This document shows positions 1,388 to 51,368 of a stretch of DNA of 64,000 nt, piece after piece. The notes beneath the pieces were generated by a model. The model did no database searches, was not told the DNA's origin, and saw only the letters and a program-made list of their open reading frames with translations. Each line of letters starts with the position of its first letter. Position 1 is the stretch's first letter. Origin of the DNA: a virus (lineage: Duplodnaviria > Caudoviricetes); the IMG/VR virus record IMGVR_UViG_3300037484_000435, positions 160,001 through 224,000 of that record; one strand, given 5' to 3'. The translations under genes and the position numbers were made by a program.

Positions 1388-2326
1388 TCAGTTAGCATTC
1401 CCTGCTTGTTGAAGAGACTGTGGAGTTACACAACCAGTAAAGCTTTGCTCCATTACTGGATAACCTGAGGGGTCGAATTCAAATATATCCGCACGTTTGA
1501 TGAAATTCTCTAGCAAAACATTAGGGGTATAATCATGCTCCAAGGGCTCAGTGTAAAGTTCAAAATCCTTATTCTTTATATCCTCTAAACCTTTTTCAAA
1601 AATCATATCTATAGCTTTCTTTTCGAACCGCATATCAAAAGGAAAAAACATCGGTAAATCTATTGTGTTGGTGTGGTTAAATTGTAATATACTTCGTACC
1701 ATCTTTCCGACTGGATCCAAGTGCGAAGTGTGGTGAATGGTAACTTCCTCAATTGGTACAGGTTGATACTGTGGCATAGGAGCACCTTCACCATTCACTA
1801 CCCTTACCCCGTCATTTGAGTCTGGATGAAAAGTGGTTCTACGTATGTGGTTATGTGGCACTGCGTAACCTTGAAGGATATCATGAGCTAGATCTGGCCT
1901 ATTCCTGAAAACATGAGGTCCTTTTGAACTACACCCGTCCGCCCGATGATGGCGGTCACAATAGTAATTAAGAAGGCTGAAAGAAATCCCCGCACCGTTT
2001 TCGAGAGGATACCTCTTAACAATATCCTTCAACGATGGACCGTGGAAAGTAAAGATTTCATCCACGTCTAAAAACAAAACCACATCTGAATCTGCCAGTC
2101 TTAAAGCAGAGGTGAAACCACTTCCGAAGGGATTATCAAAGCAATTGAATAATGATTTCACATGTTTACGTACCTTCCCGTATCTGGATAAATCTACCTT
2201 ATCATATATAGACGTATCCAGAAAAACGAAGGAGTCCACATGGTCGTATAAACTCTCAATGGACTCGTATAAAGGTAATTTAACTGTTATAGGATCGCTA
2301 ATCATAGCGTAAGCAGTAATGAACAT
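1388..2326 (-). CDS. Putative GT-A fold (GT2-like) glycosyltransferase
   Basis: LYESIESLYDHVDSFVFLDT N-terminus and DVVLFLDVDEIF (DxD) motif. Confidence 0.6.
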   Translation of the reverse strand: MFITAYAMISDPITVKLPLYESIESLYDHVDSFVFLDTSIYDKVDLSRYGKVRKHVKSLFNCFDNPFGSGFTSALRLADSDVVLFLDVDEIFTFHGPSLKDIVKRYPLENGAGISFSLLNYYCDRHHRADGCSSKGPHVFRNRPDLAHDILQGYAVPHNHIRRTTFHPDSNDGVRVVNGEGAPMPQYQPVPIEEVTIHHTSHLDPVGKMVRSILQFNHTNTIDLPMFFPFDMRFEKKAIDMIFEKGLEDIKNKDFELYTEPLEHDYTPNVLLENFIKRADIFEFDPSGYPVMEQSFTGCVTPQSLQQAGNAN

Positions 2327-3078
2327 TATATTTCCCCTTCTAATTTGTTATTTATTTCCCAATGCCTAACTCGATGACAATTCGCACAGTACAACACACA
2401 CTTATCTAATTCTTCTCTGACCTTTTTGGACATTGAGCGGTGCCGAGCCAGTAATGTTCCCAAATTCATTTCTTTCTCCTCAGAATCATGATGAAAATCA
2501 TAGACATCAAGAATCTCTGTTTCTTTTAAACCACATTTAATACATTTCCCACCTAAGTATTCGATGCAACTCCTTTTTGCGTTTATACGATCGACCTTAG
2601 ATTTCTCTGCATACTTTTTATTACAAGATTTACAATAGTTTTTGGACAAATCCTCTTTGGGAGACTTGCAGGAAACACAAAGCCCCTGTTCTTTTAATTT
2701 AATGGCCCGAATCTTACTCTTCTGGTACTTACATTTTCTACATTGTAACTCATACTTAAATTTACGCTTTAAATAGTCGAACTCAGAAATAGGTTTTAGA
2801 CGTTGACATGTACTACATAGTTGCTCAGTAGGAAACTCACGTGGTTTATTGTTTGCCCAACGTTCTAATGATTTCTCTTTTATTCTATCCTTATTTTTAG
2901 CATAATAACATCGAGTTTTTTGTCGGTTATTTTCTAAATTATTTGCCCATTTCATTTTGCTATACAGTCGGTTACACTCTTTGCAACTACAGCGAAGCCC
3001 GTCATTATGCGACCGATCCACAGAAAATTCGTCAACACTCTTCTCTATTTTACATTTGCTACACACCTTAGTCTCCAA
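2326..3078 (-). CDS. HNH endonuclease with N-terminal zinc fingers (putative homing endonuclease)
   Basis: Repeated CxxC pairs; C-terminal DFHH...ELDKCVLYCANCHRVRH. Confidence 0.8.
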   Translation of the reverse strand: METKVCSKCKIEKSVDEFSVDRSHNDGLRCSCKECNRLYSKMKWANNLENNRQKTRCYYAKNKDRIKEKSLERWANNKPREFPTEQLCSTCQRLKPISEFDYLKRKFKYELQCRKCKYQKSKIRAIKLKEQGLCVSCKSPKEDLSKNYCKSCNKKYAEKSKVDRINAKRSCIEYLGGKCIKCGLKETEILDVYDFHHDSEEKEMNLGTLLARHRSMSKKVREELDKCVLYCANCHRVRHWEINNKLEGEI

Positions 3079-3082
3079 AATA

Positions 3083-3295
3083 CTATTTTAACCTCTCACA
3101 ACCTTCTTGTTTTTGTTGAAATTGTTCTAAGTATTCCTCAAATTCTTTTGAGTTTATTCCTATATTCACTCCTGCACCACCAAAGGTACAAGACCACCCT
3201 TCAGATAAATCTGGGAGACCTCCTTTCCAATCCCCCCAGATGTGTGTAATAGTTCCTAAGTCTTTATTGTCTGGCATTCTCATCCTCCTCAACAA
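3083..3295 (-). CDS. Hypothetical protein (likely start 3277 or 3283)
   Basis: ORF track; GAGGAGG RBS upstream; fits operon spacing. Confidence 0.5.
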   Translation of the reverse strand: MLRRMRMPDNKDLGTITHIWGDWKGGLPDLSEGWSCTFGGAGVNIGINSKEFEEYLEQFQQKQEGCERLK

Positions 3296-3425
3296 GCCCC
3301 GTCTTTACATAGTTATCACAATCTTTACATTTCAGATATCCCTCTTTCTTATCTCCCGCCTTTACCCACAAAGGTAAACTCTCAAACAGTTCACCACCAC
3401 ACTTATCACACACTATCTTCTCCAT
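3264..3425 (-). CDS. Small zinc-ribbon protein (53 aa, not in ORF track)
   Basis: Hand translation MEKIVCDKCGGELF...YLKCKDCDNYVKTG...RQ*; two CxxC pairs; fills the gap between neighbours. Confidence 0.55.
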   Translation of the reverse strand: MEKIVCDKCGGELFESLPLWVKAGDKKEGYLKCKDCDNYVKTGLVEEDENARQ

Positions 3426-3434
3426 CGCTCATAC

Positions 3435-3728
3435 CTAGTCGGGTAATTTAAATCCCTCGGACTCTACCTCTGAGTATATAATAGGCGGTGTGTATCCTAC
3501 TTTAGGTAAAGGATATTCAGTATAAGGTTTTTTATTTCTCGGCCCGTCAGCTGGGGGTTCTCCAACTAACCACGTTGTATCATGTGGCCCATCAAAAACA
3601 GACCAAGCATTAGGTTCCGTTTTGAAAGGCTTATCAAACAAACCGTCAGGGCAACGCTCTCCTGTATCCCGACAATAAAAATAACCTTTTTTTATTAAGC
3701 AATTGAGTTTTTCACACATTGCACTCAA
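3435..3728 (-). CDS. Hypothetical protein
   Basis: ORF track; start overlaps upstream stop. Confidence 0.55.
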   Translation of the reverse strand: MSAMCEKLNCLIKKGYFYCRDTGERCPDGLFDKPFKTEPNAWSVFDGPHDTTWLVGEPPADGPRNKKPYTEYPLPKVGYTPPIIYSEVESEGFKLPD

Positions 3729-4591
3729 CTCCTATGCTTCTTTATCCAATTCAATTCATCTTCTAGGGAAAAGTCAGTCGCACAATTATCGGGTAAATTC
3801 TCCTTGAATTTAGATAATCCCTCAAAATCATCCACTTCAGTATCTGAGCTCACGACCCAACGCGTAGGTTTTAACCCCTCAGCAATTAGTTCTTGCTGTT
3901 TCTTCTCATTGGGCCAAGCCTTATCAGATTCATAGAGAGGAATCAATATTCTTTCTCTTAATTTATCCCCTTTTCTATATTGAATTACTTTTTCTTCCTT
4001 CCCATAAAAATTCATTTCTCCTCTCCTTCCTGGGATCAATGTTAACTTTCCAGACCTCAAGTCTTCATCAAACCAGCCGTCATGTAATTTTCTATGACAA
4101 TTGGCGCACACATACACACATTTCTGAAGTTCTGGCACAACAATTGTGTCCCAATCACGACTTATTAAGGTCGCCACAACGAAGTCTTTTTCGGCTGGAT
4201 CAACATGATGACAATCATACATTCGGTAACAACTTTCACTTACACCACATATGTAACAAGATTGCCCATAATACTCATGAATCTTTTTACTATATCGCCG
4301 CCTATAATCTGTGGCTACCGTATGTATTCTTTCCAGATTACGCTTACGATATTCCTTATTTTTCTCAGATAACTTGTCTCTATTCTGTTGACGATAACTA
4401 GTTTGGTAACATTTAATTTTTTCTACATTCTGTTCTTGATACTTTTTTGCGGACTCGATAATCTCTTGTCTATGTGTCTCGTAATATTTTGCGTTCTTCG
4501 TTGAAATTTTATCTTTATTTTTTAAATAGTATTCTTTCTTATATTGAGACTTACGTGTATCCTTTTCTTCAGTCAAACTATTGATACCCAT
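3725..4591 (-). CDS. HNH endonuclease fused in frame to a C-terminal 96-aa unknown protein
   Basis: Start refined to ATG 4591 (GGGGGAGG RBS). K/Y-rich helical N-terminus, CYICG, DCHHVDP...ELQKCVYVCANCHRKLH. Internal AGGAGAGGAG RBS before in-frame ATG at 4015. Confidence 0.75.
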   Translation of the reverse strand: MGINSLTEEKDTRKSQYKKEYYLKNKDKISTKNAKYYETHRQEIIESAKKYQEQNVEKIKCYQTSYRQQNRDKLSEKNKEYRKRNLERIHTVATDYRRRYSKKIHEYYGQSCYICGVSESCYRMYDCHHVDPAEKDFVVATLISRDWDTIVVPELQKCVYVCANCHRKLHDGWFDEDLRSGKLTLIPGRRGEMNFYGKEEKVIQYRKGDKLRERILIPLYESDKAWPNEKKQQELIAEGLKPTRWVVSSDTEVDDFEGLSKFKENLPDNCATDFSLEDELNWIKKHRS

Positions 4592-4625
4592 ATCTGAAGA
4601 CACCTCCCCCTTAATCAAAAAAATT

Positions 4626-5648
4626 CTATATAACTTCCACAATGAATTTGTCACTTGGTAGTTTAGCAAACGTGTAAATGTCCTTTATATCGCGGGGCCA
4701 TTCTGGTTCCTCAATAGAAACTTCCATCAAGGGGCCTAACGAGTGTGCATCATTAACTTCGATAAGGGGTAAATCAAGAGACAGCGGTGGTTTTAATTTT
4801 CCAATAAACTCTTCACCCCAACGATCCATAAAATAGCGACGGTTAATACTACTTTGGAACCGCATCTCCTCAACATCCATATTCACCGCGGGAATTCCTG
4901 GGTGTAACATTTTAGTTTTGTCTGTAATATCAAACCCAAAACCCGCCATACCCCACCGCAATAGAAAATCTAATTCACCGCTGTGGTCAAAGCCTCGGCT
5001 GAACACACGGTCAAAACCGTTTACTTTATCAAAATTCTTTTTGCTAACAACAAAAGAAAACAGATAGGGTGTGGGTGCGTATTGTGGATGAATCAGATAA
5101 ACCCACTGATCGCAGAAACGTGACCATACTGGCCCTAACACGGTAGTTATACTCGTTAGAGTCGTGTCTATGTTAGCAGTTCGTCCGACTCTGAGTAGGT
5201 CCCAAGGCTGAAAAAACATAACCAAGTCTCTTAGCCCCATTACACGGTCGTGCTCAACAAATTCCATACCGATATCCCAATTTAAAGTAGGCCTGTCGCC
5301 TGGGCACCCCCGACGAATAAACACTATCTTGGTATTGATGTGGTTTTTTATATCGCCCAATACAGATAAGATATCCGCTCGTCGCTCAATATCCGCAACA
5401 AATATAAACTGGTCGTGCTCTTGAATAATTCCTGGAAACTGTGCTATGGCACCCATCTGCTGGGCAAACATCTCAGGAGCCTGCGTACTGATTGCCCATA
5501 CAAAACTCACTGGCTCATTAGGCACAGGTTCATATAGGTGCGGGTAGATATCGTGCTTCTCCAAAAACTTATGGAAGGCCTCCATACGAGCATAGAAAGA
5601 CACGGTTTCTTTTTTATCTTCCATCATTTTTAATATTTGGTCATACAT
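4626..5648 (-). CDS. Divergent GT2-like glycosyltransferase
   Basis: C-terminal SFVVSKKNFDKVNGFD..F...ELDFLLR resembles the GT2 'ggfDe.f..eD.dl..R' region; canonical DxD not clear. Confidence 0.55.
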   Translation of the reverse strand: MYDQILKMMEDKKETVSFYARMEAFHKFLEKHDIYPHLYEPVPNEPVSFVWAISTQAPEMFAQQMGAIAQFPGIIQEHDQFIFVADIERRADILSVLGDIKNHINTKIVFIRRGCPGDRPTLNWDIGMEFVEHDRVMGLRDLVMFFQPWDLLRVGRTANIDTTLTSITTVLGPVWSRFCDQWVYLIHPQYAPTPYLFSFVVSKKNFDKVNGFDRVFSRGFDHSGELDFLLRWGMAGFGFDITDKTKMLHPGIPAVNMDVEEMRFQSSINRRYFMDRWGEEFIGKLKPPLSLDLPLIEVNDAHSLGPLMEVSIEEPEWPRDIKDIYTFAKLPSDKFIVEVI

Positions 5649-6199
5649 TATTGTTTCATCCTTTCTACAAAAGTACTGGTTGACGATCCCTTTAGATTCG
5701 GTCTGGGAATCAACAGGATATTACCATGTAACGAACTTTCCACATTCAATCCCCTCTTCTTATACACAGGAATAAGGTAGTCACATTTAGGGTCATAGCC
5801 CGGAACATTAGCTATATCCCAGTCCTCACCTTTGAACATGACCCCGTGGTACCTTTCCTTAATAATATGCGAAGCCATAATTCCGTAGTCCACTTCACTG
5901 TTCATCAGGAAGCAGGCGTCTACGTACTTGATAGAGTTTACTATATTGAGCCTATGGAATTCTGGGTATACTGGTCTACCTGGACCCTTATTCTCCCTGA
6001 CTAACCTATCAGTTCCTACACCTACTACCAAAAAGTCACACATTTCTCTCGCCTGTCTGAGGCACCAAATGTGGCCGAAATGGCTGAGGTCCCACACCCC
6101 GCTGTAGAAGCCAATAATGCCACCATGCTCGTATCCTATGTGCTCACAATTATATATAAGCCCGTCTATTGACGCGGCATCTTTTAAGTCGACAATCAT
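5648..6199 (-). CDS. Cytidylyltransferase-superfamily nucleotidyltransferase (HldC/RfaE-II or TagD-like)
   Basis: GVWDLSHFGH (HxGH), LVVGVGTD..V...KGPGRPV, R...V.SIKYVD, KGEDW, C-terminal SSTS. Confidence 0.85.
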   Translation of the reverse strand: MIVDLKDAASIDGLIYNCEHIGYEHGGIIGFYSGVWDLSHFGHIWCLRQAREMCDFLVVGVGTDRLVRENKGPGRPVYPEFHRLNIVNSIKYVDACFLMNSEVDYGIMASHIIKERYHGVMFKGEDWDIANVPGYDPKCDYLIPVYKKRGLNVESSLHGNILLIPRPNLKGSSTSTFVERMKQ

Positions 6200-6211
6200 T
6201 TTTCCGCTCCT

Positions 6212-7117
6212 TTAAAACGGTAAGTCCAATTCCTTTCCTTGACCACTGGGGTCTTCGGTATTAGTGACCTGTCCGTCTTTTATGGTATACACTTTACTTA
6301 ATATGTTTGGTGTACCCCACTCTTGGGGCTCGCCGCTGATAACAAGGTTTCTATCGGGACTCAAACGTATGACATTCGCTTTGTCCATAATTTTGAGTCT
6401 GTCAAAAATCCGACGCCCCGCCGCTTCCCGAGCTGGTGGAGTCTTTGGAGGACCATGCCAGAGGTGAATAGCCTGTCCAGTTATTTCCTTCTCATACTCC
6501 CCGTAGTGGTTCTTCCAATGTTCCCGAAAGCACGTATCCTCGTATCCTACAACTAGACTAAACAGTTCATCTATACCACCCAATTCAATAAACTTATTGC
6601 GTGAGAATCCCGAACAAAAATAAAATTTACTACGGGAAAATGGACCGCCTTCGGCGTAGTGGTAGTGTTTCTCATAACCTGACATTATGCTGTCATAATC
6701 ACCAAACCACTCATCTCCCTCAGTAAAGTGGGTTCGAGCGTTATACATTCTCTTGTCATTAGCTTTAAGCCCTTCCGCAATCTCAGAAATAATCCACTCA
6801 TCTTTCAGGACCACTTCGGGGTCTGTCTTGATAACGTAGGGGTTAGAAACAACATGCCTTATCATGCTATTAAATCTAGATACGGGGTTATAGGACCGTT
6901 TGGCTAAAACAGTTTTTTGCATATCAAACTGAAGATATTTAAAAGTAAACACTTCCGAGTACCTATCAATCAGGGAAAGAAGATTGTCAGTACTACGTAC
7001 GTCTCCTATACAAATCTCTATATCGTTGGCTGGGTAATCTTGTCTAGAAATACTTTCTAAACAATATTTAAGTAGATGTGCCCTATTTCGTATTGAGATA
7101 ATTATTGAAAATTTCAT
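6212..7117 (-). CDS. GT2 glycosyltransferase
   Basis: SIIISIRNRAHLLKYCLESI, D.RSTD, KTDPE, GGIDELF..GYED, HLWHG. Confidence 0.85.
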   Translation of the reverse strand: MKFSIIISIRNRAHLLKYCLESISRQDYPANDIEICIGDVRSTDNLLSLIDRYSEVFTFKYLQFDMQKTVLAKRSYNPVSRFNSMIRHVVSNPYVIKTDPEVVLKDEWIISEIAEGLKANDKRMYNARTHFTEGDEWFGDYDSIMSGYEKHYHYAEGGPFSRSKFYFCSGFSRNKFIELGGIDELFSLVVGYEDTCFREHWKNHYGEYEKEITGQAIHLWHGPPKTPPAREAAGRRIFDRLKIMDKANVIRLSPDRNLVISGEPQEWGTPNILSKVYTIKDGQVTNTEDPSGQGKELDLPF

Positions 7118-7908
7118 TGTAGCTCCTCAAAGTTTTCATTGGGAAAACCCCAATTATCTGAAGTTATTGTCTGTCCATATCCCGACTCAAGAGGAGACCC
7201 CGGATGGCGAATATGAATTATGTTATACGGGTAGATGGACCTCGGTCTTCTTACTAATTGCTCTGCTCTGGCTATTTGCCACATGTCGACACCAGCCATG
7301 GAAGTCCCTTTTGGTGTGGACAACCCCTGTAACTGATACCAAATATCTCTATGCATAAGCGTAAAATCTCCGTTAGCGTTCCAATCGTGCGTGTGAACAA
7401 CGTTCTCGGGTTTACCGCAAAACTCTTTCAGTAAAGCTATATCTTTTGGTATATCCATTATAGTGTGATAAACAGTAGGGCGATTAGCAATCATTACACC
7501 ATCACAAGCTAGGCATGCTTTGGGGAATTCATCCACCCATAGGCAGTCTGGGTTAAGTGTTAATATCATTCTGCCCATCGTTCTTCTGACTCCTATATTC
7601 TTAGCGTGGCCTTCATGAAAAGCCCTCTCTGGACTTACTGTTCGTGTGAATTCGTAAGGCACCCTTATAATCCTAGCTTTCGCCTCCTTGACAAAATCCC
7701 AATCGGACGGCCCCTCACCCTCTTCTTTTCCGCACCATTCAACAATTACCAACTCATAATCGATATTCCTAAAGGCATGTTGTAGGGTGTACAAAGAATA
7801 TTCCGCCCGTTTCTTTGCCGAAGTTGGAACGGCGGGCTCAACTTCTCTCCGAACAACTGAACCGTAATTGTTGTTCCCGATACTCATAACTAAAGACAAT
7901 TCTTTCAT
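7114..7908 (-). CDS. GT2-like glycosyltransferase
   Basis: LSLVMSIGNNNYG, YELVIVEW, AKNIGVRR..G..IL.LNPD, GDFTLMHR..W. Confidence 0.65.
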   Translation of the reverse strand: MKELSLVMSIGNNNYGSVVRREVEPAVPTSAKKRAEYSLYTLQHAFRNIDYELVIVEWCGKEEGEGPSDWDFVKEAKARIIRVPYEFTRTVSPERAFHEGHAKNIGVRRTMGRMILTLNPDCLWVDEFPKACLACDGVMIANRPTVYHTIMDIPKDIALLKEFCGKPENVVHTHDWNANGDFTLMHRDIWYQLQGLSTPKGTSMAGVDMWQIARAEQLVRRPRSIYPYNIIHIRHPGSPLESGYGQTITSDNWGFPNENFEELQ

Positions 7909-7916
7909 TCTTCTCC

Positions 7917-8870
7917 TTAATACAATTCTAATTTCTTACACATTCTTCTCAGAGTTGAATAAGACCGTGCAGGAAAAAAATATTGCAATTTAGCAACGTC
8001 CTTATATTTATCATAAATATCCTTCAGACTATTTATCTCTTCTTCTGTCCACCGGATACGTGGTTTTAAGCTTATCTCCCTGCGTATGCCTGTTCTACTA
8101 GCCTTTAAAGTAATAGCAGACCACGAAAAATCAGGCAATAATTCCATCACCTCTTCTCTAGAAGCGTTGGGATAATGATTCTTTAAAATTGAAAAATCCT
8201 CCTCTGCCCACTCTCTCCTGAAAATCTGCTCCGCCCGCTCTCCTAAGAACTCCACAGCGATAGTATATTTTCTCTCTAAATAGATTGTAGCGTCCTTGTA
8301 AATCCATTGTAAGAATCGCACAGCATTCAAGGCAGAGTATTTTACACAGTAAACATTTCCTTCAGGGCATACTCTAGTTGTGTTTCTCTGAATCTTACTG
8401 AACTCACTATGTACAAAAGACACAATATCTAAAGTCCCAACAACCCCACATTGGAGTTTGTGCTTCTTATGAGAATAAATTGTACCATCACCATCAAAGT
8501 AGCCTCGGACATAATGACTTATTAAATTCTCGGGTAAGTTAATAGGTGGTTTTAGAGTAAAGGTCTTTCTAGGGGTAAGGTTATGCTCTAATAACTGATA
8601 ATACAAATTCTTATCACTAACTACAAGAGTTATCATATTACCCTTCTCTTTTCTATTCTGAAGATATAAGGCCCTAGTTGGACATAAAATATTTTTGATT
8701 TTCTCAAGAATCTCCGTGTCAGATTCTTTCAGACTCAATGTAACAACATAGCCAGCGGATTTACTATAATACATACACCCGTCTGCACAAAAGAACCCTA
8801 GAATGTAAGCTTTCTCCTCTGTATCAATAACAGAAAAGTCCAATGATTTGTGTTTACAAGGTCTGCCCAA
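7917..8870 (-). mobile_element. Free-standing two-motif LAGLIDADG endonuclease with C-terminal WxEE repeats
   Basis: IDTEEKAYILGFFCADG and YVRGYFDGDG motifs; WAEEDF and WTEEEI repeats; TTG start with AGGAGG RBS. Confidence 0.9.
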
Positions 8871-8873
8871 TAC

Positions 8874-8915
8874 TACCTCCTTTATACTGTCTACACATAA
8901 AAGAAAGTAAATTAA
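8874..8915 (-). promoter_or_regulatory. RBS-sequestering hairpin plus upstream TTAATTT motif
   Basis: Minus strand TAC(T)TTCTTTTAT-loop-ATAAAGGAGGTA pairs over the AGGAGG RBS (G:U pairs included), checked by hand. Confidence 0.65.
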
Positions 8916-8925
8916 TTTAGGTAGA

Positions 8926-9846
8926 CTAACGGCTACCGAAGATAACTAAATCGGGGCGAGCTTCTGAAATAGGTATTTTATTTACTTTACATTTCCCTTT
9001 CTCCCAAGAAGTCAAAGTAAGATGGCTATACAACCTTCCCCAAGTTAAATCTAAGTTTGGAGGAGTATCCTTTAGTTCCTCCCTTAACTTCGCACCTTGA
9101 TTTACGTAACCATACAGGTGCGAAGGAACTCCTTGCGGGCCCGAAGCCATACCGCCGTGCCAGAGATGGATAACAGGGCTATCCAACATAGGAATAAAAG
9201 AGTCGATCCCATATTTCTTCTTCCAAAAATCTAAGAAATGATTGTCTTCCGAGCCTATGAAGTTAGTGAAGCGCTCATCTATACCACCCAGCCTTATATA
9301 ACTTTCTTTCCTAAAAACTGACATATAATACACAAGTTCATATTTTGCGTTATCTTTTGTTATGTGGGTGGGGTAGTGAGACTTTAAATAGTTATCTTTT
9401 ATACTTTCCATATTACTAATAGGAAACTCGTAGCAATGATAGGGGAATGGCATAACAAATCTGTCCTGCTTCTCGTTTACCAAATCAATTGCTTTCTGCA
9501 AGAACAACGGGTCCAAAATAACCATCTCTGGGTCTGTTTTCCATAGAATATCGTGGCTACACAACTTAACCAAAATGTTGTAACGCTCGGCAGGACACCC
9601 GAACGGATTATTTACTACTGACTTGGAACGGTCCCAGTCCCATTTCTTGACGGACTGAAAAACATTACTGTAGTCACAAAGAACCTCGTCTAGGTTATCT
9701 GAACTACGGCTATCCATAACATTAAGTTCAACCCCGACTCCTGCCCTTGTCGTGTTATCACGTATAGCCTCTAAGCACCACTTCAATAGGTGTGCTCTAT
9801 TGTGAATTGATGTAAATACAGATATTGTTATTCCTTTATTATACAA
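8926..9846 (-). CDS. GT2 glycosyltransferase (paralog of 6212..7117)
   Basis: Start refined to TTG 9846 (AGGAG RBS). SIHNRAHLLKWCLEAI, DSRSSD, KTDPE, GGIDERF..GSED, HLWHG. Confidence 0.85.
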   Translation of the reverse strand: MYNKGITISVFTSIHNRAHLLKWCLEAIRDNTTRAGVGVELNVMDSRSSDNLDEVLCDYSNVFQSVKKWDWDRSKSVVNNPFGCPAERYNILVKLCSHDILWKTDPEMVILDPLFLQKAIDLVNEKQDRFVMPFPYHCYEFPISNMESIKDNYLKSHYPTHITKDNAKYELVYYMSVFRKESYIRLGGIDERFTNFIGSEDNHFLDFWKKKYGIDSFIPMLDSPVIHLWHGGMASGPQGVPSHLYGYVNQGAKLREELKDTPPNLDLTWGRLYSHLTLTSWEKGKCKVNKIPISEARPDLVIFGSR

Positions 9847-9908
9847 AATTCTTTTTCTCCTATAATTCGCAAACAACAATAAAGCAAGTTAGTGTCGTTT
9901 CTCCCTTC

Positions 9909-10958
9909 CTAAAGAGGAGCAACTTCTCCTTTCTCCCTATAAAATGACCTAGTACCGCGAACACGGGTATTAATACCACACTTCTTCAAACACCGCTGTA
10001 TCGTAATAAAGGACACATTGAAAATCTGAGAAATCTCTGAAATAGTCATGCCTCTCTCGTAATAATCTACAACCAAGGAATAGTCAGATATCAATAATTT
10101 CCTCCTCGATTCAATAGAACGTGTTACTGACCCACCACCATTAATATACTTAGAGATGGTTGCATGACAAACACCATACTTAGATGCAAGGGATATAGTA
10201 CTTTCTCCCAGTTCATATTGTTTTATGACTGACTCCGCATCCTCCAAAGAAATTATCTTTCGATCATCCTGTCGTTTACCCAATAAACATATTTGTTTAT
10301 TTTCGTTCTCCATTATAGATAAATAGGAATCAAATTTATTCTTCTTTCTTGTTAGGTGGGGGATATCATCAGTATAATACATCCATTTATATAGTTTTTT
10401 AATGTTTTTAAAACTTTTAGTCTGAGCCACCACACACCCCACCCCATTACGAATAAAAAGGTTAATTCCTAATTCCTCCAATAAAAATAACCGCAGCCCT
10501 GTGACAAAATACTTAGATGATGTAATATTCCATATACCAATTAATATAGGAATACCTTTACGATGACCGACACCGTAACTAAAACACCCGTCGCCATCAA
10601 ACACCCCCCTTATAAAATCCACCATTAGTTCATCAGGTATAAAATTGGGGAATTTTAAAATCGACGTCTTTCTTGGTACACAGCCAAAATAGGCTAATTG
10701 ATCACTCAGACGTAGGCTATTGATTTTGAGGCAAGTAGACCTTGACGAATCCATTGGGGATAAAGGTCGGCTACTTCCTAACAAGTCTTTAAAGTATTTG
10801 AGTAAATAACTGTCCGAACTCTGCAAACAGAGAGATACTGCGTTACTACCCCAATGATTGCACCCATCAGCGTACATCATGCCTAAGAAGTAAGATTTCT
10901 CTGGTGTATCCAAAGTATCTAGAAACCCCTCATTTAAAGTATATCTTCTGGGTGACAT
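9909..10958 (-). mobile_element. Free-standing LAGLIDADG endonuclease with C-terminal HTH repeats
   Basis: TPEKSYFLGMMYADG, FIRGVFDGDG; C-terminal YELGESTISLASKYGV and YERGMTISEISQIFNV HTH-like units. Confidence 0.9.
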
Positions 10959-10959
10959 A

Positions 10960-11002
10960 TACCGCTCTCCTCCTTTTTTACTATAAGAAAGAGGTAAGTT
11001 AA
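10960..11002 (-). promoter_or_regulatory. RBS-sequestering hairpin plus upstream TTAACTT motif
   Basis: Minus strand CTCTTTCTT-loop-AAGGAGGAG stem; TACC/GGTA could pair further out. Confidence 0.65.
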
Positions 11003-11060
11003 ATCAAGTATAGTAAAAAATATCTATATGTATAAGTTGACAGCAGGCTAATTGTTTAAC

Positions 11061-11846: not shown

Positions 11847-11851
11847 ACTCT

Positions 11852-12337: not shown

Positions 12338-12341
12338 TTAA

Positions 12342-39259: not shown

Positions 39260-39270
39260 AATCTCTCCTA

Positions 39271-47795: not shown

Positions 47796-48755
47796 TTAAA
47801 ACCTATCCAGAATATATTGGGCTAAAATGACGGATGTCATATATTTTTGACCATAATCATAACACTCTTTTTGGAGTTGTTTAGATTCTTCTGGTCTGTT
47901 TACCCAATAATCCAATTTCCCTTTTAATTCCTCCGCGTCACCCCACAATATACAATTTACCCCATCAATAAAGGAATGGTAGGGTATAATCTCACTAGAA
48001 CACCTTTGAATTACTGGAATACACCCCGCCGCATAAGACTCCGCGTGCCTAAAACATGTCCAACCAGCGCCCGCAGGACAAAATGAGAACATATACTTAC
48101 ACAACTCTTCATAGTACCTAGGGTCATGTGTATACCTTCCGTAAATCCATTTGCTCCATTTCCCGTCCCCATCATTATACTCATAAGTTCCATATCTAAC
48201 TGGTAAACCAGCGTTACGAACAGTGTCCAAGTACAGCTGGCGGTGGGCCGTAGAAAGTGTTCCCAAAAACAGCAACTCCATCCGACGCTCTTTATTTAGA
48301 TGCTGAACACAAGATTCGGTATACCTTCTTTCTATCGTATAATCAAGAGCATAAACTGGTAAACCCTTCTTAGCACATTTATCCTTGGTTGCCACATCCA
48401 AATCCCTAACAAAAAGAGTATCTCCTTTCATACTGTCCACAGGTACTGGTTTAATTGGACTGCTTGGGACATTGATGTAATCAGTAAAACGATCATGAAG
48501 ATGACAAATAATTTTTTTAGCCCCGCGCAGTGGGAGCCCCATTTTATCTGGAGATAGTGCTAACGCTATACTATTATCTGTGTCCAGCATAAACCAAATA
48601 TCAATCTTACTTGGAGAAGGGATCGGCCAAGACTCAGCGTAATTAATTGCTGGCCCATTAAGATTATATACTTTATGACCCAATTGCAAAAGGCCGTCCA
48701 CAATTCCACAAATACTCGATTCCACATAATTAGTTGAAGTAATTGCTATATTCAT
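47796..48755 (-). CDS. GT-B-type glycosyltransferase (exostosin/GT47- or CgeB-like C-terminus)
   Basis: LLFLGT, FSFCPAGAGW.CFRH.E..A.GCIPV, F.DG..CI.W. Confidence 0.65.
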   Translation of the reverse strand: MNIAITSTNYVESSICGIVDGLLQLGHKVYNLNGPAINYAESWPIPSPSKIDIWFMLDTDNSIALALSPDKMGLPLRGAKKIICHLHDRFTDYINVPSSPIKPVPVDSMKGDTLFVRDLDVATKDKCAKKGLPVYALDYTIERRYTESCVQHLNKERRMELLFLGTLSTAHRQLYLDTVRNAGLPVRYGTYEYNDGDGKWSKWIYGRYTHDPRYYEELCKYMFSFCPAGAGWTCFRHAESYAAGCIPVIQRCSSEIIPYHSFIDGVNCILWGDAEELKGKLDYWVNRPEESKQLQKECYDYGQKYMTSVILAQYILDRF

Positions 48756-48762
48756 GCTAGCC

Positions 48763-49947
48763 TCACCTTAACCCTCTCTTTTTTGCTACCACATCAGCAA
48801 TATTGGAAAGTAATACTTGAGTAATCCTCTCGCTATTATACAAATCAACCATATTTAATCTGGCCTGTTTGCCTACCTCAAAAGCCTCAGATTTATTGTC
48901 ATATACGTGACGCATCAACTCTGCGGCGTTTGGTAAATTAGGCTCGGCCCACATCTGTTCCCCCCTATAAAATTGATTCCAACCCATATTATCCACAAAT
49001 GTCAATTGGTACTTTACAGGGTAGGAGTTAGTTTCGTTTAGGAATTGCCTAGACCCCCCAAAATCAGTCGCGATGATAGGGTTGGCTGCAGCAGCTGCAT
49101 CCATATAAGGTAGCCCCAAGCCCTCACCTCGGTCCAACAATACATAACAATCACACTCCTCGTGAAGTTTTCGAATAGCCTCGTTGGTTAGTTTTTCTGT
49201 AATCAAGTAAACAGGTGCATAACCTTTTACTAAATTCAAAGACCGTTTCAAATTGGAGATATGTTCTTTAATTATGTCCCTTTGGTTTTGTTGTTCTTCA
49301 ACTCTGGTGAGGTAAGTTTTCAATACCAATAAAACATCATCCTGCTCCGTAAAGGCGTTGTAATAAGCCTTAAGTAGACCTGCTCCGTTTTTTCTTTCCG
49401 TCCACTGCTGGATTGAATAAAATTTGTAAGTCCCTTGACTAACTGATTCCTTTGGTTTAAAAAGAGAAGCGTCTACATAGTTGGGAACCAAATGAATCGG
49501 GACTTTTACTCCTGAATCTTTGAAGACATCAACGGACCACCTACTCTCTACAAATACGGCATCAAACTTATTACAACAGTCAACCCACATCGGGTCTAAC
49601 CTAGTTGTTTCCCATGCACACGAGAGTATGTTTATAGAATTAGGGTCTAGAAACTGTACACCAACCTCTGGACTGAGACGCACAAAATTTATATCATGCG
49701 GACAGGGCTGTCTACATAGACCATCAAATAGTTCAAAATCCGCACCTAAGTCGGGGCGGTCTTTTTCAAAAGAAACAGGGTGTATCCATAAAGGAACGCC
49801 CGCATCCTTCATACCCTTTACCCAATTTCTTACACCTTGAGCATAACCCGAGCCATCAAACGGGCAGGATACTACTCGTATCCCTTGAATACGAATCTCT
49901 GTCTGCGGCTGCGACTCAACCTTCTCTTCCATTTCTACTTTCCGCAT
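48763..49947 (-). CDS. GT4 glycosyltransferase
   Basis: SGYA...R, AWET, ERKN..GLL.AY, LY..CDCYV...RGEGLGLP..DA.A...P.IAT.FGG..FL, WAEP. Confidence 0.9.
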   Translation of the reverse strand: MRKVEMEEKVESQPQTEIRIQGIRVVSCPFDGSGYAQGVRNWVKGMKDAGVPLWIHPVSFEKDRPDLGADFELFDGLCRQPCPHDINFVRLSPEVGVQFLDPNSINILSCAWETTRLDPMWVDCCNKFDAVFVESRWSVDVFKDSGVKVPIHLVPNYVDASLFKPKESVSQGTYKFYSIQQWTERKNGAGLLKAYYNAFTEQDDVLLVLKTYLTRVEEQQNQRDIIKEHISNLKRSLNLVKGYAPVYLITEKLTNEAIRKLHEECDCYVLLDRGEGLGLPYMDAAAAANPIIATDFGGSRQFLNETNSYPVKYQLTFVDNMGWNQFYRGEQMWAEPNLPNAAELMRHVYDNKSEAFEVGKQARLNMVDLYNSERITQVLLSNIADVVAKKRGLR

Positions 49948-51368
49948 TATACTACCTCTCCTTGACGCCAGTCACTGGGCAATTCCTTATTGGGGATTAC
50001 CGCTTCGGGCATGGGGGTCTTTAATTCTTCATACAGATTTTTAATTATATTGTCAAATCTAGGTACAATATGTCGTTCCCACTGTAAAGTATGCAAAACC
50101 CAGTCGTAAGCCTTTTCCGCCATCCTATGTCCTACCTCTGGTTTTTCATATAGCCGCTTAAGATACTTAATCATATCATTAACATTCATCTTGGGACGAA
50201 CAACTTCATTATCCATAGGGAGTACTACTCGCATATTGGGAGTATCCCCGCTCCTGCAAAGAAAGCCACGACCATCCGCAAAAATCTCTGTTAGAGATGT
50301 GTTGTCAGGAAAAATACAAGGTGTCTTAGTAGCCATAGCCTCTGTAGAACTTAAACCCCAACCTTCTCCTAACGCCGCACTTATACACACATCAGCACAA
50401 TTATAAAGTTCATTTACTATACGCACTGGAAAACCAGTATTAACATTGAAGTTCTTGGGAAAAACTATATCATCTCCCACTCTCAAATCCAAATGTTGTG
50501 CGACTCGGTTTAGGTCCCAACCAACATCTTTTTCTGCACAATGTAAATACAAAATACTGGCAGGACACTCCTTTTTAAACTCTTTGAAAGCCATCATAGT
50601 CGTAGGAATATCTTTCCTTTGTTGGTTACGGTTAACATTAATAATGATAAATTTATCCGCATGCGGACCAAAATAGAATTTACGCAGTCTTGCCCGCTCT
50701 TCGTGTGTAACAGGAAAAAACTCCTTGAGACTTATACCGTGGGGTATTACTTGCAAACGCTCTGCTATACTGGGATAAGCTCGTGCACATTGTGCTTTCC
50801 CCCATTCAGTATAAGTAATAGGTACGTCCGCCGCCGACATTGATTCAATCCACTCGGGCCACGGGACACCATCTATAGGAAAATAAACCAAACTACGGAA
50901 ATTCTTTCCACGCTTACGCATTTCTTGTATAACACTGGGGAGAAACGTCATGATGAAAGAATCCTGCAATAGAAATAGGATATCAAACTCCATTTGTGGA
51001 AGAATTTGCTGAATCTTCTCTCTACCATACGGGTCTCCTTGGGGATTAGGGAGCATAGGATAAATTTGGAAGGGGTATGGATGTGGTATGCCCATATAGT
51101 TCACACCAAAACAGTAGATTTCATAATCACCTGTCTCATAAAGATAGGGGAGAATGTTGCTAGATACTTTACCAAAACCTGTGGCTACGCTGGGAGCGTC
51201 ACCATAAAATACTAACCTTATTTTTTTCTTATTGTCCTGAGCAGGGGGCTTAAATGACCACCCTTGTGATTCTAATTTTGATAATGCTTCCTTTAGTTGT
51301 GAGTCGTTTAGGCCAACGCCACTATCCTTTCCGAGCATTTCGCTACCTGCTGGTATCATGTCACTCAT
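49947..51368 (-). CDS. GT4 glycosyltransferase
   Basis: TGFG.V, IPHG, NVNRNQ.RKD, LYN.ADV......GEGWGL...EAMA...P. Confidence 0.9.
   Translation of the reverse strand: MSDMIPAGSEMLGKDSGVGLNDSQLKEALSKLESQGWSFKPPAQDNKKKIRLVFYGDAPSVATGFGKVSSNILPYLYETGDYEIYCFGVNYMGIPHPYPFQIYPMLPNPQGDPYGREKIQQILPQMEFDILFLLQDSFIMTFLPSVIQEMRKRGKNFRSLVYFPIDGVPWPEWIESMSAADVPITYTEWGKAQCARAYPSIAERLQVIPHGISLKEFFPVTHEERARLRKFYFGPHADKFIIINVNRNQQRKDIPTTMMAFKEFKKECPASILYLHCAEKDVGWDLNRVAQHLDLRVGDDIVFPKNFNVNTGFPVRIVNELYNCADVCISAALGEGWGLSSTEAMATKTPCIFPDNTSLTEIFADGRGFLCRSGDTPNMRVVLPMDNEVVRPKMNVNDMIKYLKRLYEKPEVGHRMAEKAYDWVLHTLQWERHIVPRFDNIIKNLYEELKTPMPEAVIPNKELPSDWRQGEVV

What the first reader, a model, noticed from the sequence alone, without database searches (positions are those of the whole stretch)
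1388..51368. About 50 kb glycan assembly and decoration region in a phage: target unknown
Seen: about 11 glycosyltransferase genes (GT2-like x5, GT17-like, GT2+GT4 fusion, GT4 x2, GT47/CgeB-like, one divergent GT-A), 6 SAM methyltransferases including two TylF sugar O-methyltransferases, a sulfotransferase, and nucleotide-sugar enzymes. Established: phages glycosylate either DNA (needs a base-activating enzyme such as dCMP hydroxymethylase or TET/JBP) or virion proteins (shown for mycobacteriophages). No base-activating enzyme, flippase or polymerase for host-surface conversion was seen here. Inference: a complex methylated and sulfated heptose-containing glycan coat on virion proteins is the most economical reading, possibly for shielding or mimicry.
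Basis: partly seen in the sequence, partly recalled or inferred. Interest (0 to 1): 0.85.

Follow-up and report, generated by a model that had tools for sequence, protein, structure and literature searches.

The report
Self-encoded glycan factory in huge phage
A 545-kb sediment phage carries about 27 soluble sugar-building, sugar-transferring, methylating and sulfating enzymes and no membrane export or DNA-base-activating genes; the same variable gene island is present in every relative inspected, so these phages most likely coat their own particles with a home-made glycan, as giant viruses do, though this is not proven.

Summary
Window 1388-51368 carries 5 glycosyltransferases (GTs) above Pfam cut-offs and 5 weaker GT-like ORFs. 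It also has 6 SAM methyltransferases, a sulfotransferase, an APS kinase and a GDP-heptose-type pathway. About 24% of the stretch is 13 homing-endonuclease genes, and three left-end ORFs with no Pfam hit proved to be HNH nucleases.

New findings:
- The region is a fixed-position, variable-content island. It follows DnaB-DnaG-SSB-DnaJ-RuvC and opens with a conserved GT4 pair in all six relatives inspected (contigs of 72-315 kb); GT4a homologues also occur on a 658-kb contig.
- The genome has no thymidylate-synthase-type hydroxymethylase, no detectable TET, no initiating phosphoglycosyl transferase and no protein with six or more membrane helices apart from the tape measure.
- GT4a is closest, in sequence and fold, to chlorovirus GT B736L.
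- A second sulfotransferase lies beside the tail-tube gene. Its 44%-identical homologue in a relative lies inside the island, next to APS kinase.

Best reading (about 0.5): cytoplasmic glycosylation of virion proteins. Rivals are host-envelope remodelling through host exporters, a free or other cytoplasmic acceptor, and DNA. All support is indirect.

The scan has not noted this island on other DNA; it was only re-read in overlapping windows of this genome.

The parts
49950..51368 (-). GT4a, clade-core glycosyltransferase and first gene of the island
   Evidence: Pfam Glycos_transf_1 at 42 bits. 792 homologues at E<=1e-10, 47-78% identical, on huge-phage contigs. AF2 model pLDDT 88.9; best PDB match is chlorovirus B736L 3oy2, E 2e-23. 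The EX7E motif is conserved.
48766..49947 (-). GT4b, conserved partner gene of GT4a
   Evidence: Pfam Glycos_transf_1. It follows GT4a directly in L007, L015, L016 and two JGI contigs; in G001 about 2 kb lies between them.
51364..51603 (-). Conserved 80-aa ORF overlapping the GT4a start; function unknown
   Evidence: Orthologues 44-56% identical in L007 and L008; ORFs of 81-86 aa occupy the same slot in other relatives.
47799..48755 (-). GT47/CgeB-like GT-B glycosyltransferase
   Evidence: Exostosin_GT47 E 6e-6 and Glyco_trans_1_2 here, both weak. Orthologues carry PF13524/PF03016.
43972..44769 (-). ADP-ribosylglycohydrolase; kept inside the island in relatives, role unknown
   Evidence: Pfam E 3e-36. 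Orthologues lie in the G001 island and in the island of a JGI 114-kb contig.
41989..42687 (-). SAM methyltransferase (Methyltransf_23)
   Evidence: orthologues in L007, L016 and the P0013 contig
41276..42013 (-). SAM methyltransferase (Methyltransf_24)
   Evidence: 48% identical orthologue in G001
39274..40152 (-). Conserved island ORF of unknown function
   Evidence: No Pfam or PHROG hit. 63% identical orthologue in the G001 island.
37634..38260 (-). TylF-type sugar O-methyltransferase
   Evidence: Pfam TylF E 8e-15; 41% identical paralogue of 21307-21939.
35953..36756 (-). SAM methyltransferase (Methyltransf_24)
   Evidence: 54-59% identical orthologues in L007 and G001
34063..34650 (-). APS kinase (makes the sulfate donor PAPS)
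   Evidence: Pfam E 3e-29; NCBIfam apsK E 7e-31. It is the only copy in the genome.
32451..33464 (-). SDR, NDP-sugar 4,6-dehydratase/epimerase-like
   Evidence: Epimerase E 8e-32; GDP_Man_Dehyd E 1e-21; NCBIfam GalE/RmlB-like.
29268..30278 (-). GDP-fucose-synthase-like 3,5-epimerase/4-reductase
   Evidence: NCBIfam GDPFucSynFcl E 6e-49, below the equivalog cut-off.
24332..26788 (-). Two-domain GT2 + GT4 glycosyltransferase (819 aa)
   Evidence: Pfam GT2 E 4e-19 plus Glyco_trans_1_4 E 4e-23. 52% identical orthologue in G001; 787-aa orthologues next to APS kinase in two JGI contigs.
23737..24327 (-). SAM methyltransferase (Methyltransf_24, weak TylF)
   Evidence: 60% identical orthologue in G001
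22814..23779 (-). GT17-like ORF (a lead only)
   Evidence: Pfam Glyco_transf_17 E 0.0026, below cut-off. 67% identical orthologue in G001.
21307..21939 (-). TylF-type sugar O-methyltransferase
   Evidence: Pfam TylF E 2e-22; 71% identical orthologue in G001.
20567..21337 (-). Island sulfotransferase (Sulfotransfer_2)
   Evidence: 23.6 bits against a cut-off of 22. 43% identical orthologue in G001. Distant paralogue in the tail operon at genome 336888-337889.
15758..16483 (-). HddC-like sugar-1-phosphate nucleotidyltransferase
   Evidence: Pfam NTP_transferase E 7e-14; NCBIfam HddC E 8e-19, below cut-off.
14731..15720 (-). HddA-like GHMP sugar kinase
   Evidence: GHMP_kinases_N E 7e-10. Best NCBIfam hit is D-glycero-D-manno-heptose 7-phosphate kinase, E 9e-17, below cut-off.
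13109..13864 (-). GmhA-like sedoheptulose-7-phosphate isomerase
   Evidence: SIS_2 E 1.5e-18; NCBIfam phosphoheptose isomerase E 2e-43, below cut-off.
11064..11885 (-). Short SDR (C-terminal part of the epimerase fold)
   Evidence: Pfam Epimerase, profile positions 98-240 only. A same-length orthologue exists in G001.
8929..9879 (-). GT2 glycosyltransferase
   Evidence: Pfam 24.5 bits against a cut-off of 23.3; orthologues in L007 and G001.
7117..7908 (-). GT-A-fold glycosyltransferase-like protein
   Evidence: No Pfam hit. Atlas features score 0.97-0.99 and structure TM 0.7-0.84 to GT2 clusters. 18 homologues, all on relatives' islands where these were inspected.
6215..7117 (-). GT2 glycosyltransferase
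   Evidence: Pfam E 1.5e-9; 75% identical orthologue in L007.
5651..6199 (-). RfaE-domain-II-like sugar-phosphate nucleotidyltransferase
   Evidence: CTP_transf_like E 1e-10; NCBIfam rfaE_dom_II E 2e-20, below cut-off.
4629..5648 (-). GT-A-like ORF (a lead only)
   Evidence: Atlas features score 0.95 to GT2 clusters; 46% identical orthologue in G001.
1391..2326 (-). GT-A-like ORF (a lead only), last gene of the island
   Evidence: Atlas features score 0.96-0.97 to viral clusters, some carrying GT2; 56% identical orthologue in G001.
7920..47745 (-). Span holding nine free-standing LAGLIDADG genes that inflate the island: 7920-8870, 9912-10958, 16479-17543, 21939-22811, 28250-29233, 31401-32390, 34599-35432, 42971-43906, 46762-47745
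   Evidence: Pfam LAGLIDADG_3/_1. 31 paralogues genome-wide. No Rfam match of any kind, so no group I intron call, at E<=0.1.
2329..35950 (-). Span holding four HNH endonuclease genes: 2329-3078, 3728-4669, 13809-14780, 35432-35950
   Evidence: PHROG 2255 HNH endonuclease, E 1e-16 to 1e-27; Pfam HNH.

Best explanation
The island is a virus-encoded, wholly cytoplasmic glycosylation system. Its product is attached to the phage's own structural proteins: tail tube, capsid, or Ig-like fibre and decoration proteins.

Proposed steps, all inferred from homology:
1. The GmhA-like isomerase, HddA-like kinase and HddC-like nucleotidyltransferase turn sedoheptulose-7-phosphate into GDP-heptose. The missing phosphatase step is borrowed from the host.
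2. The dehydratase-like and Fcl-like SDRs remodel the GDP-heptose. The RfaE-II-like enzyme activates a second sugar phosphate.
3. The conserved GT4a/GT4b pair primes a conserved acceptor. The variable set of GT-A, GT2, GT47-like and GT2+GT4 enzymes extends the glycan.
4. The TylF, Methyltransf_24 and Methyltransf_23 enzymes O-methylate it.
5. APS kinase supplies PAPS. Two sulfotransferases, one in the island and one beside the tail-tube gene, add sulfate.

Because sugar content differs between relatives, the glycan would behave like a serotype determinant of the virion surface.
For: Shown:
- All enzymes in the island lack membrane helices; only one 106-aa ORF has a hydrophobic N-terminus.
- Genome-wide there is no Bac_transf initiating transferase. 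No protein has six or more membrane helices except the tape measure. The only 5-helix protein is an ABC importer permease.
- Neither this genome nor G001 has a thymidylate-synthase-family hydroxymethylase, and the controls for that search worked.
- GT4a is inherited with the clade. It has 792 homologues, and they sit on contigs of the same lengths as those carrying the tail-tube protein.
- The island's position is fixed and its content varies: aminosugar genes in L015/L019, sulfation in others.
- GT4a's nearest solved relative by sequence (E 2.7e-8) and fold (E 2e-23, TM 0.82) is chlorovirus GT B736L. Chlorovirus GTs are soluble, expressed early, and glycosylate the capsid protein (PMC9614988).
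- A Sulfotransfer_2 gene lies directly downstream of the tail-tube gene. The tube was identified by an AF2 model matching the P74-26 and T5 tail tubes. The orthologous context in L017 ends in a PF10145 tape-measure gene.
- G001 also has this sulfotransferase in its structural operon.
- Its 44%-identical homologue lies inside the island of another clade member, next to APS kinase.

Inferred: virion proteins are the acceptor.
Against: - No glycan has been observed on anything.
- The island sits in the replication and recombination module, not the structural module.
- Neither the tail tube nor the putative capsid protein has a Ser/Thr-rich tail, although I do not know what acceptor feature to expect.
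- The tail-operon sulfotransferase is confined to the G000/G001 sublineage. Two more distant members lack it, one of them despite having sulfation genes in its island.
- After B736L, GT4a's structural neighbours are small-molecule GT4s such as BshA, MshA and GlgM, not known protein O-glycosyltransferases.
- Moron-type genes are common in tail operons for unrelated reasons.
- Host flippases or ABC exporters could handle a lipid-linked product.
Confidence: 0.5

Rival explanations
1. Host-envelope remodelling. The phage enzymes build or modify a lipid-linked oligosaccharide on the cytoplasmic face. They use a host-made undecaprenyl-PP-sugar primer and host flippase, ABC exporter or ligase. This changes LPS, capsule or wall glycans during a long infection, for example to block superinfection.
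For: This is the published reading of large GT and sugar-nucleotide clusters in jumbo cyanophages (PMC7824862). Huge-phage surveys file GTs under host manipulation or envelope functions. Content that varies between relatives is also what O-antigen loci show. From my own knowledge: GDP-heptose, 6-deoxyheptose and O-methyl sugars are typical of capsules and O-antigens, and GT4 plus a methyltransferase recalls ABC-dependent O-polysaccharide pathways.
Against: There is no initiating transferase, flippase, polymerase, ligase, ABC-2 exporter or GtrA/B-type component anywhere in a genome rated 100% complete. GT4a stays 47-78% identical across a clade whose hosts probably differ, which fits a phage-encoded acceptor better. 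The GT-A-like ORFs resemble phage families rather than host loci. Base composition matches the flanks. One pathway sulfotransferase sits in the tail operon.
Confidence: 0.2
2. A free or otherwise anchored cytoplasmic product. Candidates are an intracellular methylated and sulfated oligo- or polysaccharide, a glycolipid, a glycosylated small molecule, or a glycan on a non-virion phage or host protein.
For: GT4a's structural neighbours include soluble GT4s acting on small acceptors (BshA, MshA, GlgM, sucrose-phosphate synthase) and the mannosyltransferase of the mycobacterial cytoplasmic methylmannose polysaccharide. The all-soluble enzyme set fits this reading as well as it fits virion glycosylation. 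From my own knowledge, TylF enzymes also tailor natural-product sugars.
Against: No PKS, NRPS or aglycone-forming genes were seen in the window. Ten GTs with content that varies between relatives are hard to explain for a housekeeping intracellular polymer. The tail-operon sulfotransferase has no role in this reading.
Confidence: 0.15
3. DNA hypermodification. The GTs decorate a modified base in phage DNA to evade restriction and CRISPR.
For: Phage gene clusters do put mono- to trisaccharides, including heptose, on 5hmC, using a cytidylyltransferase plus a GT-B enzyme (bioRxiv 10.1101/2023.12.21.572611). The island lies inside the replication module in every relative. The genome has one C5-cytosine methyltransferase at genome 111653-112576.
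Against: Neither this genome nor G001 has a thymidylate-synthase-family hydroxymethylase or hydroxylase, with working controls. No Tet_JBP or 2OG-FeII_Oxy_3 hit was found (the Tet control was silent, so that negative is weak). The C5-methyltransferase is an orphan 48 kb away among small ORFs. T4 beta-GT is not among the top 50 fold matches of GT4a. The DNA glycans reported in that preprint are at most trisaccharides, and I know of none that is sulfated or O-methylated; ten GTs, six methyltransferases and PAPS chemistry would be a large excess.
Confidence: 0.07

Closest known systems
Chlorovirus (PBCV-1, NY-2A) self-encoded capsid glycosylation machinery
   Same: Soluble, cytoplasmic, virus-encoded GTs plus sugar O-methyltransferases act without ER, Golgi or membrane carriers. 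Multi-domain transferases occur there (A064R: GT+GT+MT) and here (GT2+GT4). The genes are expressed early yet modify the capsid (PMC9614988). GT4a's best sequence and fold match is NY-2A B736L, which binds GDP-mannose.
   Different: The host is eukaryotic and the glycans are N-linked to the capsid protein. No heptose or sulfation is reported for chloroviruses. B736L's own acceptor is unknown. Identity to GT4a is only about 15%.
Mimiviridae glycan gene clusters (e.g. the Moumouvirus australiensis 12-gene cluster)
   Same: These are clustered sugar-nucleotide enzymes plus single- and multi-domain GTs whose content differs between related viruses. The Moumouvirus cluster includes two sulfate-metabolism genes (PMC9614988).
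   Different: The glycans decorate fibrils of giant eukaryotic viruses. No homology was tested beyond the generic GT fold.
Mycobacteriophage virion glycosylation (Freeman et al. 2023, as summarised in PMC12619734)
   Same: Phage-encoded GTs modify capsid and tail-tube subunits of siphophages. Here a pathway sulfotransferase sits beside the tail-tube gene.
   Different: From my memory, those phages carry only 2-4 GTs and no sugar-nucleotide synthesis, methylation or sulfation genes. The glycans there are at the C-termini of the subunits; no Ser/Thr-rich tail was found here. I could not read the primary paper.
Polysaccharide gene clusters of jumbo cyanophages (P-SSM2 type)
   Same: Clusters of about 15 genes hold epimerase/dehydratases, sugar kinases, nucleotidyltransferases and several GT families, differ between related phages, and have no demonstrated target (PMC7824862).
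   Different: They occur in T4-like myoviruses and are read as host O-antigen or capsule modification. No conserved GT4 anchor, sulfation module or heptose pathway is described in the passages I read.
Phage DNA sugar-hypermodification gene clusters (C5-methyltransferase + TET + GT)
   Same: Phage GT-A and GT-B enzymes are repurposed from LPS or teichoic-acid-type enzymes. Heptose can be the sugar, with a cytidylyltransferase in the cluster.
   Different: Those clusters need a 5hmC-generating enzyme next to the GT, which is not found here.
GDP-D-glycero-alpha-D-manno-heptose pathway of Campylobacter, Yersinia and Burkholderia capsules or O-antigens and of S-layer glycans (my own knowledge)
   Same: The enzyme set is the same: GmhA + GHMP kinase (HddA) + NTP_transferase (HddC), followed by dehydratase and epimerase/reductase SDRs. 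O-methylated heptoses occur in Campylobacter capsules.
   Different: All hits fall below NCBIfam equivalog cut-offs and GmhB is missing. The bacterial products are exported on lipid carriers.

Membership tests
Phage DNA sugar-hypermodification cluster | An enzyme that creates the hydroxyl acceptor on a pyrimidine: a thymidylate-synthase-like dCMP/dUMP hydroxymethylase or hydroxylase | tested here: not met
   PF00303 gave no candidate in G000 or in G001, and the control rang in 10 of 14 genomes.
Phage DNA sugar-hypermodification cluster | C5-cytosine methyltransferase plus a TET/JBP dioxygenase adjacent to the GT | tested here: inconclusive
   One orphan C5-methyltransferase lies 48 kb from the island with only small ORFs around it. 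There was no PF12851 hit, but that control was silent. There was no PF13640 hit.
Wzx/Wzy- or ABC-dependent surface polysaccharide locus, or O-antigen conversion module | Initiating polyprenyl-phosphate glycosyl-phosphate transferase (Bac_transf or WecA type) | tested here: not met
   PF02397 is absent with a working control. No WecA-like multi-pass membrane protein appears in the hydropathy scan.
Wzx/Wzy- or ABC-dependent surface polysaccharide locus, or O-antigen conversion module | Flippase, polymerase, ligase or oligosaccharyltransferase, or an ABC-2 exporter (multi-pass membrane proteins) | tested here: not met
   The hydropathy scan of 776 ORFs found no protein with six or more helices except the 14,711-aa tape measure. 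The 5-helix protein is a BPD_transp_1 importer permease and the 4-helix protein is DUF1385. The scan is crude, and Pfam models for Wzx and Wzy were not run.
GDP-D-glycero-alpha-D-manno-heptose biosynthesis | GmhA isomerase, HddA kinase and HddC guanylyltransferase | tested here: inconclusive
   The best NCBIfam hits are these three enzymes (E 2e-43, 9e-17 and 8e-19), but all fall below equivalog cut-offs.
GDP-D-glycero-alpha-D-manno-heptose biosynthesis | GmhB heptose-1,7-bisphosphate phosphatase | tested here: not met
   TIGR01662 (HAD-IIIA) gave no hit in the genome, and the control rang in 14 of 14. A host enzyme or an unrecognised ORF would be needed.
PAPS-dependent sulfation module | APS kinase plus a PAPS-dependent sulfotransferase | tested here: met
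   APS_kinase E 3e-29. Sulfotransfer_2 is above cut-off for both copies, and the tail copy also hits the PHROG Gal-3-O-sulfotransferase family. No CysD/CysH-type PF01507 enzyme is present. Sat-type ATP sulfurylase was not tested, so APS probably comes from the host.
Phage virion protein glycosylation (mycobacteriophage type) | Glycans demonstrated on capsid or tail-tube subunits | not testable with these tools
   This needs glycoproteomics on purified virions.
Phage virion protein glycosylation (mycobacteriophage type) | C-terminal acceptor segment on capsid or tail-tube subunits (the glycans are at the C-termini, per PMC12619734) | tested here: inconclusive
   No Ser/Thr-rich C-terminal tail was seen in the tail tube or the putative capsid protein. 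The acceptor motif for this system is unknown, and Ser/Thr richness was my own proxy.
GT4 family (retaining GT-B) | GT-B two-Rossmann fold with the EX7E motif | tested here: met
   GT4a model pLDDT 88.9 with TM 0.75-0.82 to GT4 structures. GEGWGLSSxE is conserved in four clade members.

The most novel reading that the evidence does not exclude
A whole clade of huge long-tailed phages (GT4a homologues occur on contigs up to about 650 kb) carries an O-antigen-like 'serotype island'. It sits at a fixed place in the replication module and is anchored by a conserved GT4 pair related to a chlorovirus GT. With it the phages build complex, lineage-specific glycans in the host cytoplasm and attach them to their own tail-tube and capsid surface. 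In this genome the glycan would be a sulfated, O-methylated heptoglycan. This would be the bacteriophage counterpart of giant-virus autonomous glycosylation and, as far as I know, the first sulfated phage glycoprotein.
Probability: 0.4. Interest if true: 0.85.

Novelty: new variant of a known kind. Interest (0 to 1): 0.66.

Why it matters
From what I know, phage virion glycosylation has been shown experimentally only in mycobacteriophages, where it involves a few GTs. Large sugar-gene clusters in jumbo phages have been filed under host manipulation without any test.

This analysis gives a concrete object to study. The island is conserved in position and variable in content, carries no export machinery, and is linked to the tail operon through a relocated pathway gene. 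It occurs on relatives' contigs from several samples, so the hypothesis can be tested on any cultivable or enrichable member.

If the glycan is on virions, it would affect how huge phages adsorb, persist in sediment, and evade predators or defences. It would also extend the giant-virus principle of autonomous viral glycosylation to bacteriophages, and would supply new soluble GTs, heptose-modifying enzymes and carbohydrate sulfotransferases.

If the target is instead the host envelope, it would show that phages can hijack host exporters with a fully foreign glycan pathway.

Tried and rejected
- Group I introns or inteins as hosts of the LAGLIDADG genes: Rfam found nothing at E<=0.1. The ORFs are free-standing here, although a relative has an epimerase with a LAGLIDADG insert.
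- Single-protein scans of IMG/VR with the GT fusion, DnaB and HddA found no relatives. Relatives came only through the search for homologous proteins and an alignment-based scan.
- GenBank phages hold only distant GT hits.
- PDB phmmer gave nothing significant for ORFs 1391-2326, 4629-5648, 7117-7908 and 22814-23779, the tail-tube protein, or either sulfotransferase.
- PHROGs and Pfam gave nothing for the tail-operon neighbours, so a fold search was needed.
- I rejected the idea that ORFs 2329-3078, 3728-4669 and 13809-14780 are GTs; they are HNH endonucleases.
- Ser/Thr-rich acceptor search: the two richest proteins are a secreted solute-binding-like protein and a small membrane protein, not virion proteins. 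I dropped this line.
- Strict co-variation between island sulfation and a tail-operon sulfotransferase does not hold: L020 has sulfation genes, but L018 from the same contig has no tail copy, and G001 lacks APS kinase.
- The PF20706 'GT4-conflict' hit to GT4a is below cut-off and I did not pursue it.
- No RNA holder was listed for the island; the only run holding it is a sediment metagenome that may be the source sample.
- The putative capsid protein (genome 349938-351041) was not tested by profile or fold.

Full report
**What the genome is.** The window is bases 160001-224000 of a single 545,322-bp contig with a 145-bp end overlap. It has 41.9% GC and 40 tRNA genes, including a CUA suppressor. 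It is an IMG/VR virus record that CheckV rates 100% complete. The only sequencing run that holds it is a sediment metagenome. Every gene in the window is on the minus strand, and base composition is even throughout.

**Checking the observation.** I scanned every ORF of 100 aa or more, plus several smaller ones, against Pfam.
- Glycosyltransferases (GTs) above curated cut-offs: two GT4 genes (49950-51368, 48766-49947), an 819-aa GT2+GT4 fusion (24332-26788) and two GT2 genes (8929-9879, 6215-7117).
- Weaker candidates: a GT47/CgeB-like protein (47799-48755), whose orthologues score better, and a GT17-like ORF at E 0.0026 (22814-23779).
- Three ORFs with no Pfam hit (7117-7908, 4629-5648, 1391-2326) are GT-A look-alikes in the ESM Atlas. 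The first also matches by structure at TM 0.7-0.84.
- Six SAM methyltransferases, two of them clear TylF, a Sulfotransfer_2 protein and an APS kinase are all present.
- For the sugar-nucleotide genes, the best NCBIfam matches are phosphoheptose isomerase GmhA (E 2e-43), heptose-7-phosphate kinase HddA (E 9e-17), heptose-1-phosphate guanylyltransferase HddC (E 8e-19), the adenylyltransferase domain of HldE (E 2e-20) and GDP-fucose synthase (E 6e-49), plus a dehydratase-like SDR. All fall below equivalog cut-offs.
- No GmhB-type phosphatase exists anywhere in the genome.
- Pfam GT2 and GT4 hits occur nowhere else in the 545 kb, so the concentration is real.

Nine LAGLIDADG and four HNH endonuclease genes take about 24% of the stretch, against 46% for glycan genes. 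An RNase HII, a terminase-ATPase paralogue, an ArfB-like protein and an ADP-ribosylglycohydrolase are also interspersed.

**The island is conserved in a clade of huge phages.**
- Homologues of the GT-A-like protein 7117-7908 led to related contigs. An alignment-based scan found a 259,732-bp IMG/VR genome, G001, rated 96% complete.
- In the roughly 85 kb of G001 that I fetched, gene order matches this genome. Its island is about 31 kb and has fewer endonuclease genes.
- GT4a has 792 homologues at E<=1e-10, 47-78% identical. They sit on contigs of 658, 327, 320, 315, 256 and 211 kb. Several of these lengths recur among contigs carrying the tail-tube protein, so GT4a is inherited with the clade.
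- In every neighbourhood inspected the order is DnaB, DnaG, SSB, DnaJ, RuvC, usually a small ORF (a nuclease gene in L015), then GT4a and GT4b; clamp and RecA lie upstream where the locus reaches that far. A variable set follows.
  - L015/L019 has dTDP-sugar isomerase, GNAT, DegT aminotransferase and a CmcI methyltransferase, with no sulfation genes, and ends at DNA polymerase A and RNR.
  - L016/L020 has an epimerase with a LAGLIDADG insert, a CgeB-like GT, methyltransferases, and Sulfotransfer_1 with APS kinase.
  - L007 has Sulfotransfer_1, APS kinase, TylF and DUF5662.
  - Two JGI contigs have two Sulfotransfer_2 genes, APS kinase, the GT2+GT4 fusion and a hexapeptide acyltransferase.
- A fixed anchor with variable sugar chemistry is how bacterial O-antigen and capsule loci are organised.

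**Testing possible targets: DNA.** Neither this genome nor G001 has a thymidylate-synthase-family enzyme, and the controls for that search worked. I found no Tet_JBP or 2OG-FeII_Oxy_3 hit, but the Tet control was silent, so that negative is weak. The single C5-cytosine methyltransferase is an orphan 48 kb away among small ORFs. Published phage DNA-glycan clusters need such an activator next to the GT and reach trisaccharides at most, although they can use heptose.

**Testing possible targets: the host surface.** There is no Bac_transf initiating transferase. A hydropathy scan of 776 ORFs found no protein with six or more membrane helices except the 14,711-aa tape measure. The one 5-helix protein is an ABC importer permease flanked by solute-binding proteins and an ATPase. 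Hydrophobic windows inside the island enzymes are Rossmann-fold cores, not membrane helices. The pathway is therefore soluble and cytoplasmic unless host machinery is borrowed.

**A link to the virion.**
- The island sulfotransferase has a distant paralogue at genome 336888-337889. It is Sulfotransfer_2 above cut-off and matches the PHROG Gal-3-O-sulfotransferase family at E 1e-8.
- The 561-aa gene just upstream of it has over 430 homologues. Its AF2 model (pLDDT 79.7) matches the tandem-domain tail tubes of P74-26 and T5.
- Downstream come small chaperone-position genes and then the giant tape-measure gene. The orthologous tape-measure gene in a relative carries PF10145.
- G001 has the same sulfotransferase in its structural operon, at a slightly different slot. 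Two more distant members lack it.
- An exhaustive HMMER search found that one of its closest relatives outside these two genomes (44% identity) lies inside the glycan island of another clade member, immediately upstream of APS kinase and the GT2+GT4 fusion.
- So in this sublineage a pathway gene moved from the island into the tail operon.

**The core GT.** GT4a gave a confident model (pLDDT 88.9). Its best PDB match, by five orders of magnitude in E-value, is B736L of chlorovirus NY-2A (E 2e-23, TM 0.82). B736L is also its best sequence match. According to PMC9614988, B736L binds GDP-mannose, and chlorovirus GTs are soluble, expressed early and build the capsid glycan together with O-methyltransferases. 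A Moumouvirus glycan cluster contains sulfate-metabolism genes. The next structural neighbours of GT4a are soluble small-molecule GT4s, including the mannosyltransferase of a cytoplasmic methylmannose polysaccharide. T4 beta-GT is not in the top 50.

**Verdict.** The most likely function, at about 0.5, is autonomous cytoplasmic glycosylation of virion proteins with a lineage-specific glycan. In this genome the glycan is predicted to contain modified heptose, O-methyl groups and sulfate.

The following are shown:
- the gene content of the island;
- its conservation and variability across the clade;
- the genome-wide absence of export and base-activating genes;
- the soluble nature of the enzymes;
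- the placement of a sulfotransferase next to the tail-tube gene.

The following are inferred: each enzymatic step, the composition of the glycan and the acceptor.

Rivals are host-envelope remodelling through host exporters (0.2; the published default for jumbo-phage sugar clusters), a free or otherwise anchored cytoplasmic product (0.15) and DNA modification (0.07).

I rate it a new variant of a known kind. Virus-encoded virion glycosylation is known in giant viruses and, in a minimal form, in mycobacteriophages. Large sugar clusters in jumbo phages have also been noted. What is new here is the clade-wide anchored island, the sulfation and heptose chemistry, and the link to the tail operon.

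Noticed in passing
window 7920-47745; genome-wide: 31 LAGLIDADG paralogues occur in the genome, 9 of them in this window, plus a family of HNH endonuclease paralogues. They are free-standing, and no Rfam family of any kind, group I introns included, was matched. Relatives have far fewer in the same island.
   Followed up: partly
window 17528-18403: A 292-aa terminase large-subunit ATPase-like paralogue sits inside the island. It is 31% identical to a 590-aa ORF at genome 369358-371130 that I take, untested, to be the real terminase, and it has no nuclease domain.
   Followed up: partly
L016:12987-14990 (same as L020:2753-4756): In a 256-kb relative, the island's epimerase gene encodes a 667-aa product with the layout Epimerase-LAGLIDADG-Epimerase. 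This is a likely intein, whereas this genome has the endonuclease genes free-standing.
   Followed up: no
window 40522-40908, and genome 47126-47202: An RF-1-domain (ArfB-like) protein lies in the island, and the genome has a tRNA with a CUA anticodon. Together they hint at manipulation of stop-codon reading. ORF density under the standard code is 92%.
   Followed up: no
window 43972-44769: An ADP-ribosylglycohydrolase is retained inside the glycan island in G001 and in a JGI 114-kb contig. Its role is unknown; it could be counter-defence or sugar-nucleotide chemistry.
   Followed up: partly
genome 524282-534664 (outside the window): A cluster of signal-peptide solute-binding-like proteins, a BPD_transp_1 permease and an ABC ATPase forms a phage-encoded ABC importer. 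It might import a sulfur compound that feeds the sulfation module, but this is speculation.
   Followed up: partly
genome 337924-339609 (L001:5927-7609, minus strand): The major tail-tube protein has tandem tube domains, like those of T5 and P74-26. It has over 430 homologues, 41-90% identical among the best 120 listed, on contigs up to 647 kb, and makes a good marker for the clade.
   Followed up: yes
window 31106-31372: An 89-aa Ig-like (Big_1, below cut-off) ORF lies inside the island. It resembles residues 322-395 of a 400-aa protein at genome 249231-250433, in the fibre/Ig-protein region. It is not conserved in the part of the G001 island that I compared (L008).
   Followed up: partly
G001:C1:255512-256375 (L009): The tail-operon sulfotransferase orthologue in G001 has one in-frame TGA within the match. 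This could be recoding, a sequencing error or a pseudogene.
   Followed up: no
genome 71495-73288 (outside the window): A 597-aa secreted protein has a roughly 110-residue Ser/Thr-rich repeat linker (SSGYSKP/SSGYTKP) ahead of a domain that, by eye only, looks like a solute-binding protein. The linker is a possible O-glycosylation substrate, but the protein is exported.
   Followed up: no
genome 349938-351041, 395920-396987, 413049-414125: There are three capsid-like paralogues. The first is 74% identical to its G001 counterpart and lies in the head-tail operon. Their identity as capsid proteins was not tested here.
   Followed up: no
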